From the sequence record OZ035758.1: a DNA stretch of 41,071 nt. One strand, written 5' to 3'. This document shows, piece after piece, positions 2,796-38,813 of the stretch. The position numbers and the translations under genes were made by a program. Below the pieces are notes generated by a model that was not told where the DNA came from, did no database searches, and was given only the letters and a program-made list of their open reading frames with translations. The stretch comes from Kagunavirus LF7074P1. Position 1 is the stretch's first letter. Each line of letters starts with the position of its first letter.

Positions 2796-2816
2796 AGCCC
2801 CGAAAGGGGCTTTCTT
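2796..2816 (+). terminator. Intrinsic terminator-like hairpin after portal gene
   Basis: agcccc-gaaa-ggggct stem-loop followed by ttctt. Confidence 0.5.
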
Positions 2817-2821
2817 ATAGT

Positions 2822-3898
2822 ATGCTATTAACTTTAGCGCCACAGGGTTTATCTATGAGCTTACTTACATCACTAATCAGCCACCAGATATGGCTGCAAC
2901 GAACCGCATCCGGTGAGGTGAAAGACCTCGCGCCGTTCATTAAGGAGATGCGGGACGAAATCAAACGGCAGGTGCTGCTATTCGGCGACGGCGGTCGCAG
3001 CACTGCGCGACTGAATAAACTGTTACGTGACCTTGAAGAAGCACTGACAGGACTTACTGGTGACTGGCAAACAAAGCTGGCAGAAGACCTCAAGGAACTG
3101 GCGGTGTATGAAGCTGAGTGGAACGTAAAGACCCTGACCGCCAACGTAGATGCGGAATTTGTTACGCCCACCGCCGAACAGGTGTGGGCCGCTGCTGAGT
3201 TTCAGCCATTATCATTGAGTGGCAAGCCAGTTGATTTCACTAAACTGATGTCAGGTTGGGGTGAAACGGAAGTAGCACGTCTTGTAACCGGCGTTAAGAT
3301 GGGCTTTGTACAAGGTCAAACAACACGGCAGATTGTTAAGAATGTAGTAGGCGCCGGTGGGCTGGCTGACATCTCTGAGCGTAACGCCGCTACCGTCATC
3401 CGCACCGCGCTGTCTCACGTGTCCAACGAAGCCCGTAACGAGACGTACCGCCAGAACGACGACATCATCGAGAAGTACGAGTGGGTGTCAACGCTGGACA
3501 GCCGTACCAGTACGATTTGCAGAGCCAGAGACGGAATGACGTGGGAAATTGGTAAAGGGCCGATGCCCCCTGCCCATCCGAACTGCCGGTCGTGCACGGC
3601 TCCGGTAATCAGTTCCGAGTTCGACTTCCTCGATAAAGGCGCAAAACGCGCGGCTAAGGGCGCCGAAGGCGGTACTCAGGTAAGTGCGGACACCACCTAT
3701 TACGAGTTCCTGAAACAACAACCGGCATGGTTTCAGGACCAGGCGCTCGGCCCTGTTCGCGGTAAGATTTTCCGTAACAGCGGTATATCGCCGGAAGAGT
3801 TTCGCGTAATATCTGTAGATGGTTTCGGGAACCCGCTGACGCTTAAGCAGATGGCGGAACTCGATAAACGTGTTGCTGATTATCTGAAAGGGGAATAA
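2822..3898 (+). CDS. Head morphogenesis / minor head protein (SPP1 gp7 / Mu F-like by position and size)
   Basis: 358-aa ORF after portal; start uncertain (ATG 2822 has no RBS; ATG 2856 alternative). Confidence 0.55.
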   Translation: MLLTLAPQGLSMSLLTSLISHQIWLQRTASGEVKDLAPFIKEMRDEIKRQVLLFGDGGRSTARLNKLLRDLEEALTGLTGDWQTKLAEDLKELAVYEAEWNVKTLTANVDAEFVTPTAEQVWAAAEFQPLSLSGKPVDFTKLMSGWGETEVARLVTGVKMGFVQGQTTRQIVKNVVGAGGLADISERNAATVIRTALSHVSNEARNETYRQNDDIIEKYEWVSTLDSRTSTICRARDGMTWEIGKGPMPPAHPNCRSCTAPVISSEFDFLDKGAKRAAKGAEGGTQVSADTTYYEFLKQQPAWFQDQALGPVRGKIFRNSGISPEEFRVISVDGFGNPLTLKQMAELDKRVADYLKGE

Positions 3899-4359
3899 TG
3901 ATGGGCTTTTTCAAAGTAACTGACGTACCGTCTCGTCGCGTAGTCCAGTACGCCCGCGTGTCTGGCTCTGGCGAGAACGTGGTGTTTATTGAAGACGAAA
4001 GTGTACTCGGAACACCAGTGGACGATATGCCGTTTGCGGACAAGACCGGTATTGCGCTGCCAGCGGCAGGTATGCTTTATGAGATTCAGTACCTGGCGGA
4101 TGCTGGTGATGTGTATTTCTCCGTACAACCGCAGGACGCTGAACTGGCAGACGGCAGCGCAAATATCGCTGTCGAAGTTAAGGCGGGCAAAGCACCATAT
4201 GCGCTGACCTGGTACAAAGACGGGAAGGAAGTGGTAAACGCCCCGGAAGAGGCTCTGTCTCTGACGGTTAACGCAGTTGGTGAATACTTCGTTAAAGTCA
4301 CTGATGCCGATGGTATAGAGGCCGTAAGTAAAGCAGCGAAGGTTACTAAGCCAGAATAA
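3898..4359 (+). CDS. Hypothetical protein, possibly Ig-like (beta-sandwich) C-terminal region; candidate head decoration protein
   Basis: 153-aa ORF, start overlaps upstream stop (TAATG); C-terminal alternating hydrophobic beta-strand-like pattern; followed by strong terminator. Confidence 0.4.
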   Translation: MMGFFKVTDVPSRRVVQYARVSGSGENVVFIEDESVLGTPVDDMPFADKTGIALPAAGMLYEIQYLADAGDVYFSVQPQDAELADGSANIAVEVKAGKAPYALTWYKDGKEVVNAPEEALSLTVNAVGEYFVKVTDADGIEAVSKAAKVTKPE

Positions 4360-4364
4360 ACTGA

Positions 4365-4385
4365 AGCCCCGAAAGGGGCTTTTTA
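4365..4385 (+). terminator. Rho-independent terminator
   Basis: agcccc-gaaa-ggggct hairpin followed by TTTTT. Confidence 0.75.
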
Positions 4386-4433
4386 GTGCCTGTGATTATT
4401 CCAGTTATTCCACTCAATTGTAAATGTTGGAAT

Positions 4434-4451
4434 AAACTATTCGAATAGTTT
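4434..4451. repeat. Perfect 18-bp palindrome AAACTATTCGAATAGTTT
   Basis: Read directly; lies in 316-bp intergenic region and is preceded by ATGTTGGAATAA, which recurs at 5207-5218. Confidence 0.8.
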
Positions 4452-4655
4452 ACTTTTCACCAAAAATGTGCTAAGCTCCACCTGAGCTTGTGAAGTATGA
4501 ACAAGCGACCGCGGCGCGGGCAGGTAACGGAGCGGGACGTAAGTCCTGAGTGTAGTTACGCTGACGCGTTCGGAAGGGCCATACTCTATTGCTTGTGTAA
4601 AAAGTAACTGGTTTACTGAGATTACGCCGTTTCTATGTTTAAATGATAAGGACTA

Positions 4656-4681
4656 GCGCCCCGCTTTAAGGCGGGGCTTTA
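4656..4681 (+). terminator. Terminator-like hairpin
   Basis: gccccgc-tttaag-gcggggc stem followed by ttt. Confidence 0.45.
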
Positions 4682-4701
4682 CTTATCGAGAAAGGGGAAA
4701 C

Positions 4702-5088
4702 ATGAATCTTAAAGCAACTGTCGTAGCGGGAGCATGTTTCATCATCCTGGCTTACGCACACGGCATCTACCAGTATCGCAGCGGCTGGAACGGAGGCCGG
4801 GCGAATCTCGTTTCGCAGCAACAGCAGAAAGCACAGGCTGAGTTAGCTAAGAAAACACAACGGCAGCGGCAGGATGAATCGAAGGCCGCCGCCGCTGATA
4901 ACGAAGGCAAGACGAAATCAGAGGTAATCACCCGTGAAGTCGTTAAGTACATTAAAACGCCTGGCCGCAGCGTGTGCACTTTTGACCCTGAGCGCGTGCA
5001 GCTCAAGTCCCGCGCCGTCGCAAACGCCAATTCCATCCCCGGATACGACGATGATGCAGCCGCCGTGCAAACTGGCACTGCCAAGTAA
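4702..5088 (+). CDS. i-spanin (Rz-like)
   Basis: 128 aa; N-terminal transmembrane segment (VVAGACFIILAYAHGIY) followed by charged, Q/A/K-rich predicted coiled coil; contains an overlapping +1-frame lipoprotein ORF. Confidence 0.65.
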   Translation: MNLKATVVAGACFIILAYAHGIYQYRSGWNGGRANLVSQQQQKAQAELAKKTQRQRQDESKAAAADNEGKTKSEVITREVVKYIKTPGRSVCTFDPERVQLKSRAVANANSIPGYDDDAAAVQTGTAK

Positions 5089-5197
5089 CGACGCGGACGA
5101 GGATTTAGCTATTGACGTCCAGAACGCAGAATGTGTACGGCAACTGAGACTTAAAGTGTTCATGTTGCAGGATTACGTGAGGAATATTCTGGAATAG
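4934..5197 (+). CDS. o-spanin (Rz1-like outer-membrane lipoprotein), overlapped with i-spanin
   Basis: GTG start with GAGG 9 nt upstream; signal peptide ending in lipobox LSAC; proline-rich mature region (PAPSQTPIPSP). Confidence 0.65.
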   Translation: MKSLSTLKRLAAACALLTLSACSSSPAPSQTPIPSPDTTMMQPPCKLALPSNDADEDLAIDVQNAECVRQLRLKVFMLQDYVRNILE

Positions 5198-5276
5198 TTG
5201 CCTTGTATGTTGGAATAATTTATTCTTGACATGTAAATCCGGGTGGCCCGGATTCCAACGTCCAGGGGACATACTG

Positions 5277-5903
5277 ATGAGCGAAGAAGTGAAAGACGAA
5301 ACTATCGAACAACAAGAGACTAAGACCACGTTTACCAAAGAAGAAGTTGACGCGCTGGTATCCGGTCTTAAAGCTAACAACGAGAAACTCTTGTCTGAAA
5401 AGAAAGCTGCCGCCGCTGCCGCGAAAGAAGCCGCAGATGCGAAGCTGAAAGCCGAACAGGAACGCGCAAAACAGAACGGCGAACTTGAGGCATTCGAGAA
5501 AACGTTGCGCAGTCAGTATGAGCCAGTACTCGCCGAGAAAGACGGTAAGATTAGCAAAATGGCTGAGCGTATCCTCGGCGCAGAACGTAAATCAGTTATC
5601 AGCCAGTTGTCTGGCATGTTGATTGATGCGAGCGCAGCGGATATTATCGCTATGATGGTCAAGACCGAATTTGACGGCGATGACGTTGTGACCAAGTTCA
5701 CAGGTGCAGATGGTAATGTCATCACCACCGACGCAGAGCAATTTAAAAAGTATCTGCGTGAGCACAAAGCATTTTCGCATCTGATTAAAGCAGATGCAGC
5801 AACCGGCGGCGGGGCTTCCGGTAACAAAAATTCTACTGGCGGGGCCGGTGGTGCGGACGTAATCCAGCAAAAACTTAACGCCAAATACGGCAAACGAGGA
5901 TAA
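5277..5903 (+). CDS. Putative scaffolding protein
   Basis: Acidic, Ala/Lys/Glu-rich helical 208-aa protein immediately upstream of major capsid gene; ATG 5277 with RBS aggggac preferred over in-frame TTG 5226. Confidence 0.5.
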   Translation: MSEEVKDETIEQQETKTTFTKEEVDALVSGLKANNEKLLSEKKAAAAAAKEAADAKLKAEQERAKQNGELEAFEKTLRSQYEPVLAEKDGKISKMAERILGAERKSVISQLSGMLIDASAADIIAMMVKTEFDGDDVVTKFTGADGNVITTDAEQFKKYLREHKAFSHLIKADAATGGGASGNKNSTGGAGGADVIQQKLNAKYGKRG

Positions 5904-6935: not shown

Positions 6936-7103
6936 GTGGAAATTAAATACGTACCAATGCCAATTACCATCGAGCAGAAGCGCGAGTATAACCGTCAGGG
7001 GTTCCGTGTGGTAGATGCTCGTTTCGCACCAGAAGGCACCGTGGTAGAATCGGCTAAAGAAGAGACACCACGCCGCCAGCGCCGGGCGAAATCAGAGGAA
7101 TAA
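6936..7103 (+). CDS. Small hypothetical protein (55 aa), not in ORF track
   Basis: GTG start 8 nt after AGGAG; basic C-terminus (RRQRRAKSEE); fills gap between terminator and next gene. Confidence 0.3.
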   Translation: MEIKYVPMPITIEQKREYNRQGFRVVDARFAPEGTVVESAKEETPRRQRRAKSEE

Positions 7104-7106
7104 TTT

Positions 7107-7619
7107 ATGCCGCTAATCGTGGAAGATGGGTCGATAGTACCTGATGCCGACAGTTACATTAGTCTGACTGACGCCCGCGCGTTAGCGGCTAATTATGGTC
7201 TGGAGTTACCGGCAGACGATACTGCCGCAGAGGTGGCCTTACGTAACGGTGCTACTTATGTCGGGCTTGCAGAACCGCAGATGTGCGGTCGTCGGGTATC
7301 CGCTGAACAGTCTCTGGCGTATCCACGCACCGGTGTTACGTTGAATGGTTTCCCCGTAGCGAACAATGTCATTCCGAAGCAGGTGATTCTTGCGCAGGTA
7401 ATCGCCGCTGCTACATATGGCGCAGGTACTGAGGTGCGGGCTAACTCTGACGGACGTTCGGTACAGACCGAGCGCGTAGAGGGCGCAGTAACCGTCACCT
7501 ACTTCAATAACGGCAACAGTGGTTCTACAACCGCGATTACCGCCGCTGACGACGCCTTACGCCCGTTACTGTGTGGTGGTCTTAACAATGGCTTCTCGTT
7601 TAATGTGTACCGGGGTTAA
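7107..7619 (+). CDS. Head-tail adaptor/connector-like protein (DnaT-like N-terminal pattern)
   Basis: 170 aa beginning MPLIVEDGSIVPDADSYISLTDA, a pattern recalled from phage head-tail connector proteins; position after capsid gene. Confidence 0.45.
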   Translation: MPLIVEDGSIVPDADSYISLTDARALAANYGLELPADDTAAEVALRNGATYVGLAEPQMCGRRVSAEQSLAYPRTGVTLNGFPVANNVIPKQVILAQVIAAATYGAGTEVRANSDGRSVQTERVEGAVTVTYFNNGNSGSTTAITAADDALRPLLCGGLNNGFSFNVYRG

Positions 7620-10573: not shown

Positions 10574-10598
10574 AAGGCCCCGAAAGGGGCCTTTTTCT
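10574..10598. terminator. Bidirectional intrinsic terminator between convergent genes
   Basis: aggcccc-gaaa-ggggcct hairpin flanked by A-run upstream and T-run downstream. Confidence 0.75.
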
Positions 10599-34679: not shown

Positions 34680-34716
34680 CCAATCCCTGCAATATTTAAT
34701 CTTTACAAAAAAGTTA

Positions 34717-34746
34717 TTGAAAGTTCTTGACACATGTTTGTATAAT
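34717..34746 (+). promoter_or_regulatory. Candidate rightward sigma70 promoter (TTGAAA-18-TATAAT)
   Basis: Consensus -10 TATAAT at 34741-34746; reads into a non-coding region containing a long hairpin. Confidence 0.4.
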
Positions 34747-34773
34747 GGTTTTGGGACTTGTATATATTACGGA

Positions 34774-34805
34774 GTTGACGAACCCTCCCTGAGGGATTCG
34801 TCAAC
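34774..34805 (+). other. Long perfect inverted repeat / stem-loop (GTTGACGAACCCTC-CCT-GAGGGATTCGTCAAC)
   Basis: ~14-bp perfect stem read directly from sequence; about 30 nt downstream of the candidate promoter at 34717. Confidence 0.7.
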
Positions 34806-34946
34806 CCCTCCCAGACAGCTGAGATGCTTGTTTTAGGGTTTAAGGATAAGTGTATCTAAATCTCATTTAAAGAAGTAACCCACTGAAATATCTACTGTTT
34901 CTTAATGTGCCGTAGATTCGCAACCGTAAAAATGTAACGATTATTG

Positions 34947-34972
34947 GGCAGGCTTAAGGCCTGCCCTTTAGT
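34947..34972 (+). terminator. Weak terminator-like hairpin
   Basis: gggcaggc-ttaag-gcctgccc stem followed by ttt. Confidence 0.35.
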
Positions 34973-35038
34973 TACCAAGTAATAAGAATAAAGGCACAAC
35001 CTTCCCCGAAGAATCACAACGGCAACGTAACTAATCTC

Positions 35039-38251: not shown

Positions 38252-38717
38252 TGGATTGCATTTTACCGCCGCGTTTGAGGGGTTCCGCGGAACTGCGTAT
38301 CGTGCTACGCCATCGGAAAAATACTTAACTATAGGCTACGGTCATTACGGGCCGGACGTGGCCCCAGGCAAGACCATCACGCCAGGGCAAGGCCTCCTGT
38401 TACTGAACCGTGATATGGCTAAGGCCGTAGCTGCGGTTGACGCAGCGGCGCACCATTCGCTAACACAGGCGCAGTTTGATGCAGTGTGCGACCTGGTCTA
38501 TAACGCGGGGGCCGGCGTTATTTCGGCTACTACCGGTACAGGTAAGGCACTGCGCTCCGGTGATATCGCGACGTTACGGGCTAAACTGGCGCTGTTCATC
38601 AACCAGAACGGCAAACCGTTACTGGGCCTTCGCCGCCGTACCGCCGGTCGCCTGGCGCTGTTTGACGGTAAACCGTGGCAAGAGGCGGAGGCTATCGGGC
38701 GCGCGGTGAAAGGTTGA
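38229..38717 (+). CDS. Endolysin, glycoside hydrolase family 24 (lambdoid/P22 gp19-type lysozyme)
   Basis: GTG start 8 nt after GGAGG; motifs EGFRGTAY...TIGYGH...QFDAVCDLVYNAG...LLGLRRRTAGRLALF parallel P22-type lysozymes; no N-terminal signal-arrest-release segment. Confidence 0.8.
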   Translation: MSRNISDNGLHFTAAFEGFRGTAYRATPSEKYLTIGYGHYGPDVAPGKTITPGQGLLLLNRDMAKAVAAVDAAAHHSLTQAQFDAVCDLVYNAGAGVISATTGTGKALRSGDIATLRAKLALFINQNGKPLLGLRRRTAGRLALFDGKPWQEAEAIGRAVKG

Positions 38718-38782
38718 CACCCAAGACTAATCCGATGATACTTAAATCACCTCCTGTTCCATCCCTCTGCTCTCCAGTTTTA

Positions 38783-38813
38783 TCCCGGCCCTGACCCAGC
38801 CGGGATTTTTTTT
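38783..38813 (+). terminator. Strong rho-independent terminator after lysis cassette
   Basis: tcccggc-(9-nt loop)-gccggga stem followed by 8 T. Confidence 0.8.

What the first reader, a model, noticed from the sequence alone, without database searches (positions are those of the whole stretch)
4386..4701. Terminator-bracketed 316-bp intergenic region in the head operon with an 18-bp perfect palindrome and a repeat shared with the scaffold upstream region
The region between the Ig-like protein gene and the spanins is flanked by intrinsic terminators. It contains the perfect palindrome AAACTATTCGAATAGTTT (4434-4451) and the sequence TTGTA-ATGTTGGAATAA, whose core recurs at 5207-5218 just upstream of a TTGACA box before the scaffold gene. 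There is a GC-rich stretch (4500-4580) with only a weak 36-codon ORF. Possible protein-binding site (late regulator), small RNA, or remnant of a moron.
Basis: seen in the sequence. Interest (0 to 1): 0.4.

Follow-up and report, generated by a model that had tools for sequence, protein, structure and literature searches.

The report
Conserved structured leader RNA in phage
The "empty" 316-bp gap in front of the lysis and capsid genes of this E. coli phage is a small transcription unit for a previously undescribed, tightly folded non-coding RNA that nearly all phages of this subfamily carry, and that probably controls transcription into the genes behind it.

Summary
The main content is different. 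An extended -10 sigma-70 promoter (4449-4477) is predicted to drive a ~200-nt non-coding RNA from ~4484 to the hairpin at 4658-4677. Its first 108 nt (4484-4591) fold into a short hairpin plus a long three-helix hairpin. Across 41 distinct relatives, 94.8% of pair cells stay paired and 15 of 29 pairs show compensatory changes. The ORF is broken or lacks its ATG in relatives. This RNA family has no Rfam match. It occupies this locus in 449 of 487 Guernseyvirinae records with a homologous spanin region. About 40 relatives carry a second copy at the head of the rightward early operon. The RNA is more conserved (about 98%) than the flanking genes (84-92%). The palindrome and repeat belong to an array of GGAATA motifs around a divergent promoter region. 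Its leftward promoter is orphaned here, so it is a moron remnant. The best reading is a cis-acting promoter-proximal leader that governs read-through into spanin, scaffold and capsid genes. That function is inferred, not shown. A stand-alone sRNA is the main rival.

The parts
4364..4381 (.). Bidirectional intrinsic terminator hairpin (GCCCC-GAAA-GGGGC, T5 on the + strand) that ends the portal/head-morphogenesis/Hoc-like gene block
   Evidence: The same hairpin sequence recurs at 2796-2813.
4395..4424 (-). Leftward promoter-like site TTTACA-18-AATAAT with TG. It is orphaned in this genome. In relatives two small leftward genes sit between it and the terminator.
   Evidence: 10 of 12 matches; fBC-Eco01 genes 07 and 08, and a predicted leftward promoter; alignment breakpoint near 4397. 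Many relatives match only from 4397 onward.
4397..4447 (.). Array of GGAATA/TATTCC motifs: TATTCC at 4397 and 4406, GGAATA at 4429, TATTC at 4438, GAATA at 4443. It includes the inverted repeat GGAATA-AAC-TATTC (4429-4442). Candidate operator array, binding factor unknown.
   Evidence: (one of only two such clusters in the genome; nearly invariant in 51 distinct relatives). GGAATA-N3-TATTC is kept in Jerseyvirus and is a perfect GGAATAAATTATTCC in phiEap-2.
4433..4452 (.). Perfect 20-bp palindrome TAAACTATTCGAATAGTTTA with a conserved 16-bp core at 4435-4450. It overlaps the -35 hexamer and is centred about 41.5 bp upstream of the predicted start.
4449..4477 (+). Extended -10 sigma-70 promoter: -35 TTTACT (TTGACT in nearly all relatives), 17-nt spacer, TGc, -10 TAAGCT (4472-4477). 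Predicted start is near G4484.
   Evidence: Read from the sequence. It is conserved together with the RNA at both loci. Jerseyvirus has TAGACT-17-TGtTACGCT and phiEap-2 has TGGACT-17-TGaTAACCT. The start site is inferred.
4484..4591 (+). Conserved structured RNA core. P1 is 4486-4491/4501-4506. P2 is 4509-4511 plus 4513-4518 paired with 4565-4573, with C4512 bulged and tandem G.U pairs. P3 is 4521-4528 paired with 4555-4559 plus 4561-4563. P4 is 4533-4538/4543-4548 with a GUAA loop. A conserved tail AAGGGCC..UCUAUUG follows.
   Evidence: Covariance model hit of 134.8 bits, the only one in the window. Independent minimum-energy folds of every variant give the same architecture. Covariation is shown. 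Frequent G.U pairs fix the strand as +.
4497..4607 (+). 36-codon ORF, annotated as a hypothetical protein in some relatives. Judged not to be a gene.
   Evidence: Among 71 distinct units the product is 9, 17, 19, 22, 32, 34, 36, 40, 41 or 48 aa, in shifting frames. The ATG is absent in 9 of them, and Jerseyvirus P1 has no ATG. No PHROG match.
4592..4657 (+). A/U-rich 3' part of the transcript, with short motifs shared among cassette types (ACUGA, GCCGU, GUUUCUAU). Sequence is conserved, with no convincing covarying structure.
   Evidence: (98% identity among type-A copies).
4658..4680 (+). 3' hairpin/terminator GCCCCGCU-UUAA-GGCGGGGC with a short U tract (UUUAC). Stem changes in relatives are compensatory.
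   Evidence: (GCCCAGC/GCTGGGC, GCCCTGC/GCAGGGC). The equivalent hairpins in the J, B, C, E and V types lack a U tract.
4702..5197 (+). Overlapping Rz-like i-spanin (4702-5088) and o-spanin (4934-5197) genes, the first genes downstream of the RNA
5181..5225 (+). Second GGAATA cluster (5181, 5191, 5212), including GGAATAATTTATTC (5212-5225).
   Evidence: Conserved in Jerseyvirus. Its left half lies in the o-spanin coding end.
5236..5254 (+). Hairpin AAUCCGGG-UGG-CCCGGAUU upstream of the scaffold gene (start 5277). No U tract.
   Evidence: Jerseyvirus has ACACCGGG-TGG-CCCGGTGT, a compensatory change.

Best explanation
The region is a compact transcription unit, not spacer DNA.

**What it contains**
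- A divergent promoter region (4395-4477) carries an array of GGAATA motifs and a palindrome. These are probably operators for an unidentified DNA-binding protein.
- Its leftward promoter has lost its genes in this genome.
- Its rightward extended -10 promoter is predicted to start a ~200-nt non-coding RNA at about 4484.
- The first 108 nt fold co-transcriptionally into a 5'-terminal hairpin (P1) and a long irregular hairpin (P2-P3-P4). The base of that hairpin (P2, with a bulged C and tandem G.U pairs) and its 3' tail (AAGGGCC) are the invariant parts.
- The transcript then reaches a GC-rich hairpin with a poor U tract, 24 nt before the spanin start codon.

**Proposed mechanism**
- The folded 5' domain acts in cis as a promoter-proximal leader. 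It sets how much transcription continues through this hairpin, and through later terminators, into the spanin, scaffold and major-capsid operon.
- The most likely route is action on the elongating host RNA polymerase or an associated host factor, in the manner of phage HK022 put RNA. Pairing with the terminator is unlikely.

**Shown versus inferred**
- Shown: the structure, its conservation, its non-coding nature, its position and its distribution.
- Inferred: the transcription start, the cis action and the read-through mechanism.
For: **Structure**
- Every sequence variant independently folds to the same architecture.
- On the model-fitted alignment, 94.8% of cells pair, against 29-43% when partners are slid.
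- 15 of 29 pairs carry double changes. The covariation score is 0.366 against 0.125, reached by 0 of 500 shuffles.

**Non-coding:** the ORF is broken or lacks its ATG in relatives.

**Selection**
- The RNA is about 98% identical among type-A copies, while flanking genes are 84-92%.
- In Salmonella phage S120 the RNA is 97.7% identical but the adjacent spanin only 80.2%.

**Leader-like context**
- The RNA always sits directly after a conserved promoter and on the same strand as a long operon.
- This holds at two independent loci: upstream of spanin/scaffold/capsid (180 type-A plus 269 type-J of 487 records), and at the head of the rightward early operon in about 40 relatives.

**The 3' hairpin is a poor terminator in most lineages**
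- U tracts are UUUAC in type A and UUAGC in type J. Types B, C, phiEap-2 and Cornellvirus have none.
- So the RNA is probably co-transcribed with downstream genes in those lineages.

**Need for read-through**
- There is no room for a promoter between 4680 and 4702.
- No sigma-70-like promoter was found before the scaffold gene.
- The structural gene block contains several terminators with no promoter behind them: 2796, 4364, 4658 and 6898.

**No terminator pairing:** terminator stem variants change without any correlated change in the core, which argues against a terminator/antiterminator switch.

**Interchangeable copies:** one relative (L012) has a type-C-like P3/P4 at the type-A locus.
Against: - No transcript data are available. 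The start site, the 3' end and any read-through are all predictions.
- In Kagunavirus the hairpin is a reasonable intrinsic terminator and its stem is maintained by compensatory changes. That is also what a stand-alone sRNA gene would need.
- The early-locus copy is optional. It is absent from this window, where a different RNA cassette fills the slot.
- A moderate promoter-like site (TTGCAC-17-TACTAT) lies between that slot and the first early gene. The cassettes could therefore be independent units.
- Other rightward promoters (38714, 38836) have no such RNA.
- The model does not match HK022 putL or putR, no boxA is present, and no Q- or N-like protein was recognised. No known antitermination system is therefore identified.
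- The high primary-sequence conservation of the unstructured 3' part would also suit a base-pairing or protein-binding trans function.
Confidence: 0.42

Rival explanations
1. It is a stand-alone, trans-acting small RNA gene (a moron-like unit with its own promoter and terminator). Its product acts on host or phage targets or proteins, for example by titrating a host RNA-binding protein or as an anti-defence decoy. The downstream genes are fed only by leakage.
For: - The unit has its own promoter and hairpin/terminator and is bracketed by terminators in this genome.
- The terminator stem is kept by compensatory changes.
- Cassette-like exchange is visible. Type A is 96-98% identical in phages whose spanins are only 80% identical.
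- There are alternative alleles (A or J) at one locus, and optional or replaceable copies at the early locus.
- The unstructured 3' part is sequence-conserved.
Against: - In most lineages the 3' hairpin has no U tract, so a discrete sRNA end is not predicted there.
- No extended complementarity to phage transcripts was found.
- The one 14-of-17 match to spanin mRNA (4527-4543 against 5002-5018) does not covary.
- No similarity to any of 5,426 complete E. coli genomes.
- The 3-nt U tail is too short for a typical Hfq-class sRNA (judged from my own knowledge of that class).
- Orientation is always co-directional with, and immediately upstream of, an operon.
Confidence: 0.3
2. It is a 5' UTR element that stabilises or processes the spanin/scaffold/capsid mRNA. 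A 5'-terminal stem-loop would protect against RNase E or RppH, and the hairpins would serve as processing or stability signals. It would not affect transcription elongation.
For: - P1 begins 2 nt from the predicted 5' end. From established knowledge, this is the classic position for a 5' stabiliser.
- Further conserved hairpins sit just upstream of the spanin and scaffold start sites.
Against: - A simple stabiliser does not need a 90-nt domain with an invariant P2 and tail kept across variants that differ by about 45%.
- P1 itself is the least conserved helix. It is shortened and resequenced in Jerseyvirus.
Confidence: 0.13
3. It is a riboswitch or other ligand- or protein-sensing attenuator whose aptamer is the P2-P4 domain.
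For: The order is promoter, structured domain, terminator, then genes. There are an invariant junction and tail and a conserved bulge with tandem G.U pairs.
Against: - No Rfam family matches, even at E-values up to 10.
- Internal-loop sequences are not conserved between the A, J, E and V types.
- About 65 nt of poorly structured sequence separate the domain from the terminator.
- No alternative pairing with the terminator is evident, and no covariation links the two.
- The same element heads two functionally unrelated operons.
Confidence: 0.06
4. The conserved feature is a small protein gene (the 36-aa ORF at 4497-4607, annotated as a hypothetical protein in several GenBank records).
For: The ORF is annotated in Sciku, fBC-Eco01 and others. 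The N-terminal MNKRPR is shared by many copies.
Against: - Frame-shifting indels and early stops give products of 9 to 48 aa.
- The ATG lies in the P1 loop and is lost in the C2 and J variants.
- Substitutions are compensatory in helices rather than following codon positions.
- There is no PHROG family and the ribosome-binding site is weak.
Confidence: 0.02

Closest known systems
HK022 put RNAs (putL/putR), cis-acting processive antitermination RNAs
   Same: - The element begins within a few nucleotides of the start of a sigma-70 transcript. putL starts at +3 (PMC9378689); P1 here starts at +3.
- It consists of two adjacent stem-loops with bulges.
- Sequence-related copies head different operons of one phage genome.
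- It is followed by terminators that must be passed to express downstream genes.
- No dedicated antiterminator protein is recognisable.
   Different: - There is no sequence or structure match. Model R1 finds nothing at putL or putR in the HK022 genome.
- The core is about 90-108 nt rather than about 70 nt, with one short and one long three-helix hairpin.
- It occurs in virulent Guernseyvirinae, not lambdoid phages.
- RNA polymerase binding and antitermination are untested.
Lambda pR'-6S RNA-tR' late leader (Q-dependent antitermination)
   Same: A promoter is followed by a ~200-nt non-coding transcript that ends at a terminator, immediately upstream of lysis genes and then head genes (established knowledge of lambda). 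The overall layout is the same here.
   Different: - No Q homologue is annotated or detected.
- The lambda leader works through DNA and pause elements and a protein, not through a conserved RNA fold.
- Here it is the RNA fold that is under selection.
- The weak model hit in the HK022 pR' region covers only a P1-like hairpin and is probably chance.
N/nut and rrn-type antitermination sites (boxA plus boxB hairpin)
   Same: Promoter-proximal RNA signals occur in more than one copy per genome. P4 carries a GNRA-type loop (GUAA) in the A, E and V types.
   Different: No boxA-like sequence lies near the element. The P4 loop is not conserved across types. No N-like protein is recognised.
Phage-encoded trans-acting sRNAs carried as morons
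   Same: It is a self-contained promoter, RNA and terminator unit inserted between structural genes, and it is exchanged between phages as a cassette.
   Different: The fold is much more elaborate and covarying. The unit is near-universal at a fixed locus in a whole subfamily. Most lineages lack a terminator U tract.

Membership tests
Any Rfam 15 family | Covariance-model match at or near the gathering score | tested here: not met
   No hit at gathering thresholds over the whole window. Over 4300-4760 at E-values up to 10, only chance-level hits of 12-16 bits to unrelated families appeared. ARAGORN finds no tRNA or tmRNA.
HK022 put RNA | Sequence and structure similarity to putL/putR (about 70 nt, two stem-loops forming a V shape, stem I with a triplex) | tested here: not met
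   Model R1 run without filters on the full HK022 genome gives no hit at the put sites. The best hit is 17 bits in the pR' region and covers P1 only. Architecture taken from PMC9378689.
HK022 put RNA | Located at the very 5' end of, or shortly downstream in, an early sigma-70 transcript, upstream of terminators, with more than one related copy per genome | tested here: met
   The predicted start is 2 nt before P1. Terminators lie downstream. Two copies are present in about 40 relatives but only one in this window. The start site is predicted, not measured.
HK022 put RNA | Binds the RNA polymerase beta' zinc-binding domain and suppresses termination in cis without protein factors | not testable with these tools
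   Needs in vitro transcription and rpoC mutants.
Lambda-type Q/pR' late leader | A Q antiterminator gene upstream, and a Q-binding element or sigma-dependent pause at the promoter | tested here: not met
   No antiterminator appears in the curated annotation of the relative Sciku. No PHROG antitermination family was found among 20 small ORFs of the window. A -10-like repeat at the RNA start (TAAGCT...TGAGCT here; TACGCT...TACGCT in type J) is noted but has G at the critical second position in this genome.
nut/rrn boxA-boxB antitermination site | A boxA (GCUCUUUA-like) next to a hairpin on the transcript | tested here: not met
   No + strand boxA-like match with up to 3 mismatches lies anywhere near 4484-4700 or 34700-35000.
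Hfq-type trans-acting sRNA | Rho-independent terminator with a long U tail, and a conserved single-stranded seed complementary to targets | tested here: inconclusive
   The terminator is present but the U tail is only 3 nt, and it is absent in the J, B, C, E and V types. No convincing phage target was found. Host targets with short seeds cannot be assessed (one search tests only longer similarity).
Transcriptional riboswitch | An aptamer whose 3' strand competes with a terminator stem, and conserved ligand-pocket nucleotides | tested here: not met
   Terminator stem variants carry no correlated core change. Internal loops differ between types. Ligand binding is not testable here.
Small protein gene | The reading frame, start codon and length are conserved among homologues | tested here: not met
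   One search shows many different products in shifting frames, with the ATG absent in 9 distinct units. Type J has no ATG. No PHROG match.
RcsB box (host response-regulator site) | TN(G/A)GAN4TC(T/C)NA (PMC7913699) | tested here: not met
   The GGAATA-N3-TATTC units have 9 nt rather than 4 between GGA and TC. Only GGAATATTCT at 5181-5190 fits the core, and it lacks the outer T and A.

The most novel reading that the evidence does not exclude
This is a new class of phage RNA that, once transcribed from its own promoter, makes the host RNA polymerase resistant to termination without a phage protein. It would be a functional analogue of HK022 put with an unrelated fold. A whole subfamily of virulent, therapy-relevant coliphages and Salmonella phages would use it to drive their lysis and capsid operon and, in some genomes, their early operon.
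Probability: 0.27. Interest if true: 0.8.

Novelty: new variant of a known kind. Interest (0 to 1): 0.62.

Why it matters
- **Scope.** Guernseyvirinae (Kagunavirus, Jerseyvirus, Cornellvirus) are among the most frequently isolated E. coli K1 and Salmonella phages. By my own knowledge, they are widely proposed for therapy and food biocontrol.
- **A gap in understanding.** I found no description of how their gene-expression programme is controlled, and no antiterminator or late activator was recognised here.
- **What this adds.** The most conserved non-coding segment of these genomes is a structured RNA at the head of the capsid/lysis operon. In GenBank it is currently left unannotated or annotated as a hypothetical protein. 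It gives a concrete, testable handle on late-gene control.
- **If it modifies RNA polymerase.** It would be only the second fold known to do what put RNA does, and the first in virulent phages.
- **If it is a trans-acting RNA.** It would be a widespread phage sRNA of unknown target.
- **Practical consequences either way.** The ORF calls in this region should be removed from annotations. Engineered phages should not use this "intergenic" site as a neutral insertion point.

Tried and rejected
- **Rfam and tRNA scans.** Rfam at gathering and permissive thresholds, and ARAGORN, found nothing.
- **Coding hypothesis for 4497-4607.** Rejected on frame, stop and ATG variation and the absence of a PHROG match.
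- **A second copy in the window.** None was found by BLAST or by the covariance model without filters. The early-locus cassette at 34700-34985 shares only 3' motifs and is not a family member.
- **Members outside Guernseyvirinae.**
  - Degenerate pattern scans of IMG/VR, JGI/ENA metagenomes and GTDB genomes returned only contigs of about 41-45 kb resembling these phages, one short contig binned as a Bacillota MAG, and chance GC-rich hits.
  - There was no match in 5,426 E. coli genomes.
- **HK022 put membership.** No hit. The weak hit in HK022 pR' covers a P1-like hairpin only.
- **Known antitermination components.** There is no boxA. An ops-like resemblance in Jerseyvirus P3, judged by eye against a consensus recalled from memory, is not shared by type A and lies in a covarying helix. 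No Q- or N-like protein was found.
- **Terminator/antiterminator pairing with the core.** No correlated changes.
- **Antisense pairing of P3/P4 with spanin mRNA (4527-4543 against 5002-5018).** No covariation, so judged chance.
- **P1 loop pairing with CAUACU at 4580-4585.** The partner varies freely while the loop does not.
- **RcsB box reading of the GGAATA motifs.** The spacing is wrong.
- **TGnTAAGCT as a repeated phage promoter motif.** It is not enriched.
- **The tRNA-Ser annotation in phage SGP007.** It lies on the opposite strand over the upstream terminator and ARAGORN does not reproduce it in a relative.
- **Literature searches.** Searches for Kagunavirus, Jerseyvirus or Guernseyvirinae non-coding RNA found no description. 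The one Kagunavirus RNA-seq paper reports gene-level data only.
Full report
**Identity of the window.** The 41,071-bp window is essentially a complete Kagunavirus genome (Guernseyvirinae). It is nearly identical to Kagunavirus LF7074P1 and close to the K1G and K1ind phages. The finding lies between a Hoc-like Ig-domain decoration gene (3898-4359) and the overlapping Rz-like spanin genes (4702-5197). The scaffold gene (5277-5903) and the major capsid gene follow.

**Observation check.**
- Terminator hairpins sit at 4364-4381 and 4658-4677.
- The palindrome is a perfect 20-mer at 4433-4452. It is the only perfect palindrome with arms of 8 or more in the genome, and arms of 9 or more occur in 15.5% of dinucleotide shuffles.
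- The shared repeat is 17 of 19 (4424-4442 against 5207-5225).
- It is part of a larger pattern. GGAATAANNTATTC with up to 1 mismatch occurs 5 times against 0.16 expected.
- GGAATA/TATTCC hexamers form only two clusters of three in the genome, at 4397-4434 and 5181-5217.
- The 36-codon ORF is at 4497-4607.

**What the region mainly encodes.** BLAST showed that 4397-4701 is 95.7-99.7% identical in about 180 Escherichia and Salmonella phage records. It is more conserved than its coding flanks: about 98% against 84-92% in 100-nt windows. In Salmonella phage S120 it is 97.7% against 80.2% for the adjacent spanin.

Upstream of the conserved GC-rich block lies an extended -10 promoter, read from the sequence. 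It has a -35 TTTACT at 4449-4454 (TTGACT in nearly all other distinct relatives), a 17-nt spacer, TGc, and TAAGCT at 4472-4477. This predicts a start near G4484 and a ~197-nt transcript ending at the 4658-4677 hairpin.

**Paralogues supply the variation.** A divergent copy in another record (81% identity) first showed whole-stem compensatory replacement and frame-breaking indels. An IMG/VR scan then showed that many relatives carry two different copies. One is "type A" at this locus. The other is a paralogue (types B, C, C2 and an L020-type) about 11-13 kb away.

**Structure.**
- Each variant on its own folds, by minimum free energy, to the same architecture.
- P1 is 4486-4491/4501-4506.
- After two nucleotides comes a long irregular hairpin.
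- P2 is 4509-4518 paired with 4565-4573, with C4512 bulged and two conserved G.U pairs.
- P3 is 4521-4528 paired with 4555-4563.
- P4 is 4533-4538/4543-4548, capped by GUAA.
- RNAalifold recovers P1-P3 from a plain MAFFT alignment. The long-range pair 4515:4568 occurs as C-G (17), U-A (7) and A-U (1).
- A covariance model (R1) finds exactly one copy in the window (134.8 bits, 4484-4591).
- On 35 distinct sequences, 95.6% of cells pair, against 30-43% for slid partners, with 7 pairs changed on both sides.
- Adding the Jerseyvirus version gives 41 distinct sequences. Then 94.8% of cells pair, 15 of 29 pairs have double changes, and the covariation score is 0.366 against 0.125, reached by 0 of 500 shuffles.
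- These alignments are fitted to the model, so they lean towards it. The independent single-sequence folds and the MAFFT-based result agree with them.
- Frequent G.U pairs fix the transcribed strand as +.

**The ORF is not a gene.** Among 71 distinct units the "protein" is 9 to 48 aa in shifting frames. The ATG sits in the P1 loop. It is missing in 9 of the 71 distinct units; the Jerseyvirus P1 also has no ATG. There is no PHROG match.

**Distribution.**
- Of 487 phage records with a homologous spanin region, 180 carry type A.
- A further 269, mostly Jerseyvirus, carry a divergent "type J" at the same place.
- R1 detects type J at 35-44 bits with the same helices, although P1 and P3 are entirely resequenced.
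- phiEap-2 has a marginal hit (E = 0.13) with recognisable P2-P4 and the CGGAAGGGCC tail.
- Cornellvirus keeps only a P3/P4-like hairpin with a GUAA loop and the AGUCUAUU motif, behind a different promoter.
- The second copies (B, C, C2) occur in about 40 records.
- They sit between the divergently transcribed HTH gene and the first gene of the long rightward early operon.
- One relative has a chimeric type-A-locus element with type-C helices, which suggests exchange between the copies.
- Pattern scans of IMG/VR, metagenomes and GTDB genomes found family members only on Guernseyvirinae-like contigs.
- 5,426 E. coli genomes have no match, and Rfam has none.

**The regulatory DNA.** The palindrome and repeat lie in a divergent promoter region.
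- A leftward promoter-like site (TTTACA-18-AATAAT, 4424..4395) faces the upstream terminator with no gene between them. In fBC-Eco01 and many others, two small leftward genes sit there. The "moron remnant" idea is therefore right for this part.
- The segment GGAATAAACTATTCGAATAGTTGACTTTT is almost invariant in 51 distinct type-A upstream sequences.
- Across genera, what persists is GGAATA-N3-TATTC: GGAATACTTTATTC in Jerseyvirus and the perfect GGAATAAATTATTCC in phiEap-2. The 18-20-bp palindrome does not persist.
- The B and C copies lack these motifs. The motifs therefore belong to the locus, not to the RNA.
- They are good candidates for operators. The palindrome is centred about 41.5 bp upstream of the predicted start. 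The binding protein is unknown, and the host RcsB box does not fit.
- The TTGACA at 5226 has no -10 and reads TTGTTA in Jerseyvirus. The hairpin after it (5236-5254) is conserved through compensatory changes.

**How it probably works.** Two readings fit the anatomy: a cis-acting leader or a stand-alone sRNA. I favour the leader, for these reasons.
- The RNA always follows a conserved promoter directly and precedes a co-directional operon, at two unrelated loci.
- In most lineages the 3' hairpin has no usable U tract, so the RNA should be part of the operon mRNA.
- There is no space for a promoter between the hairpin and the spanin start.
- No sigma-70-like promoter was found before the scaffold and capsid genes.
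- The structural block contains several terminators without following promoters.
- The invariant parts (the P2 base, the bulge, the tandem G.U pairs and the AAGGGCC tail), combined with freely resequenced distal helices, look like a docking surface for a conserved host machine. They do not look like a base-pairing seed.
- Terminator variants do not covary with the core, so a classical terminator/antiterminator switch is unlikely.

The closest functional precedent is HK022 put RNA. It starts at +3 of the transcript, has two stem-loops, occurs as two related copies per genome and needs no protein factor (PMC9378689). This RNA is not a member of that family. Antitermination here is an inference.

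Several points count against the leader model. The Kagunavirus hairpin is a credible, selectively maintained terminator. The early-locus copy is optional, and in this window a different cassette replaces it. A possible downstream promoter exists there. Other rightward promoters lack the element.

**Novelty and significance.** No Rfam family and no paper found in the searches describes this RNA. It is a new RNA family. It is near-universal in a phage subfamily, has strong covariation support, and sits at a position that suggests control of late or lysis gene transcription. I rate it a new variant of a known kind, namely promoter-proximal structured phage leader RNAs or sRNAs. Interest is moderately high because the function is untested.

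Noticed in passing
window 34700-34985: A different non-coding cassette sits exactly where relatives carry the second (B or C) copy of the RNA. It has the strongest rightward promoter match in the genome (TTGAAA-18-TATAAT, 34717-34746). It also has a ~220-nt strongly structured transcript (z = -4.5, including the long hairpin GUUGACGAACCCUC...GAGGGAUUCGUCAAC) and a terminator at 34946-34966. The full cassette occurs in only 20 records, but its last ~100 nt occur in 334. R1 does not match it. It may be a second unrecognised RNA.
   Followed up: partly
window 4451 (-35 hexamer 4449-4454): This genome has TTTACT where nearly all of the other 50 distinct type-A upstream sequences have TTGACT. This single G-to-T change weakens the -35 and is what makes the palindrome perfect beyond 16 bp.
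   Followed up: yes
window 5236-5254; L117 2258-2276: The hairpin AAUCCGGG-UGG-CCCGGAUU lies about 20 nt upstream of the scaffold start codon. Jerseyvirus conserves it through compensatory changes (ACACCGGG-UGG-CCCGGUGU). It has no U tract. It may be a processing or stability element.
   Followed up: partly
L012 2220-2328 (IMGVR_UViG_3300045988_039442): This is a chimeric element. It has the type-A locus and 3' part, but P2 loop, P3 and P4 sequences of the early-locus type C1. That implies recombination or gene conversion between the two copies in one genome.
   Followed up: partly
L008 about 4330-4360, and other type-B copies (L010, L038, L050): A (CTCA)n microsatellite of variable length, 3 to about 6 units, sits between the type-B RNA core and its 3' hairpin.
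   Followed up: no
window 38714-38810: A promoter-like site (TTGACA-17-GATACT) overlaps the end of the endolysin gene. About 60 nt later comes a strong terminator (CCCGGC...GCCGGG plus T8), and then another promoter (TTGACT-17-TATATT, 38836). This may be a very short transcription unit.
   Followed up: no
window 4472-4488; L117 1510-1530: The start of the RNA nearly repeats the promoter's -10 hexamer: TAAGCT...TGAGCT here, and an exact TACGCT...TACGCT in Jerseyvirus. It may be a sigma-dependent pause signal or a by-product of the P1 sequence. It remains unexplained.
   Followed up: no
window 2796-2813, 4364-4381, 10574-10593: Nearly the same terminator hairpin (GCCCCGAAAGGGGC) is reused at several places in the structural gene block, with no promoter-like site behind it.
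   Followed up: partly
L118 252-330 (Salmonella phage SGP007, PV654122.1): A tRNA-Ser is annotated on the opposite strand, across the end of the decoration gene and its terminator. ARAGORN finds no tRNA in the equivalent region of a relative, so the annotation is probably spurious.
   Followed up: partly
window 7097-7110: GGAATAATTTATGC, a one-mismatch copy of the GGAATAATTTATTC motif, overlaps the ribosome-binding site and start codon of the gene beginning at 7107. It may be coincidental.
   Followed up: no
L001 1988-2430 (fBC-Eco01 genes 07 and 08): These are the two leftward genes that this genome lacks. They encode a 114-aa protein of PHROG 13472 (unknown function) and a 33-aa peptide with no family.
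   Followed up: partly
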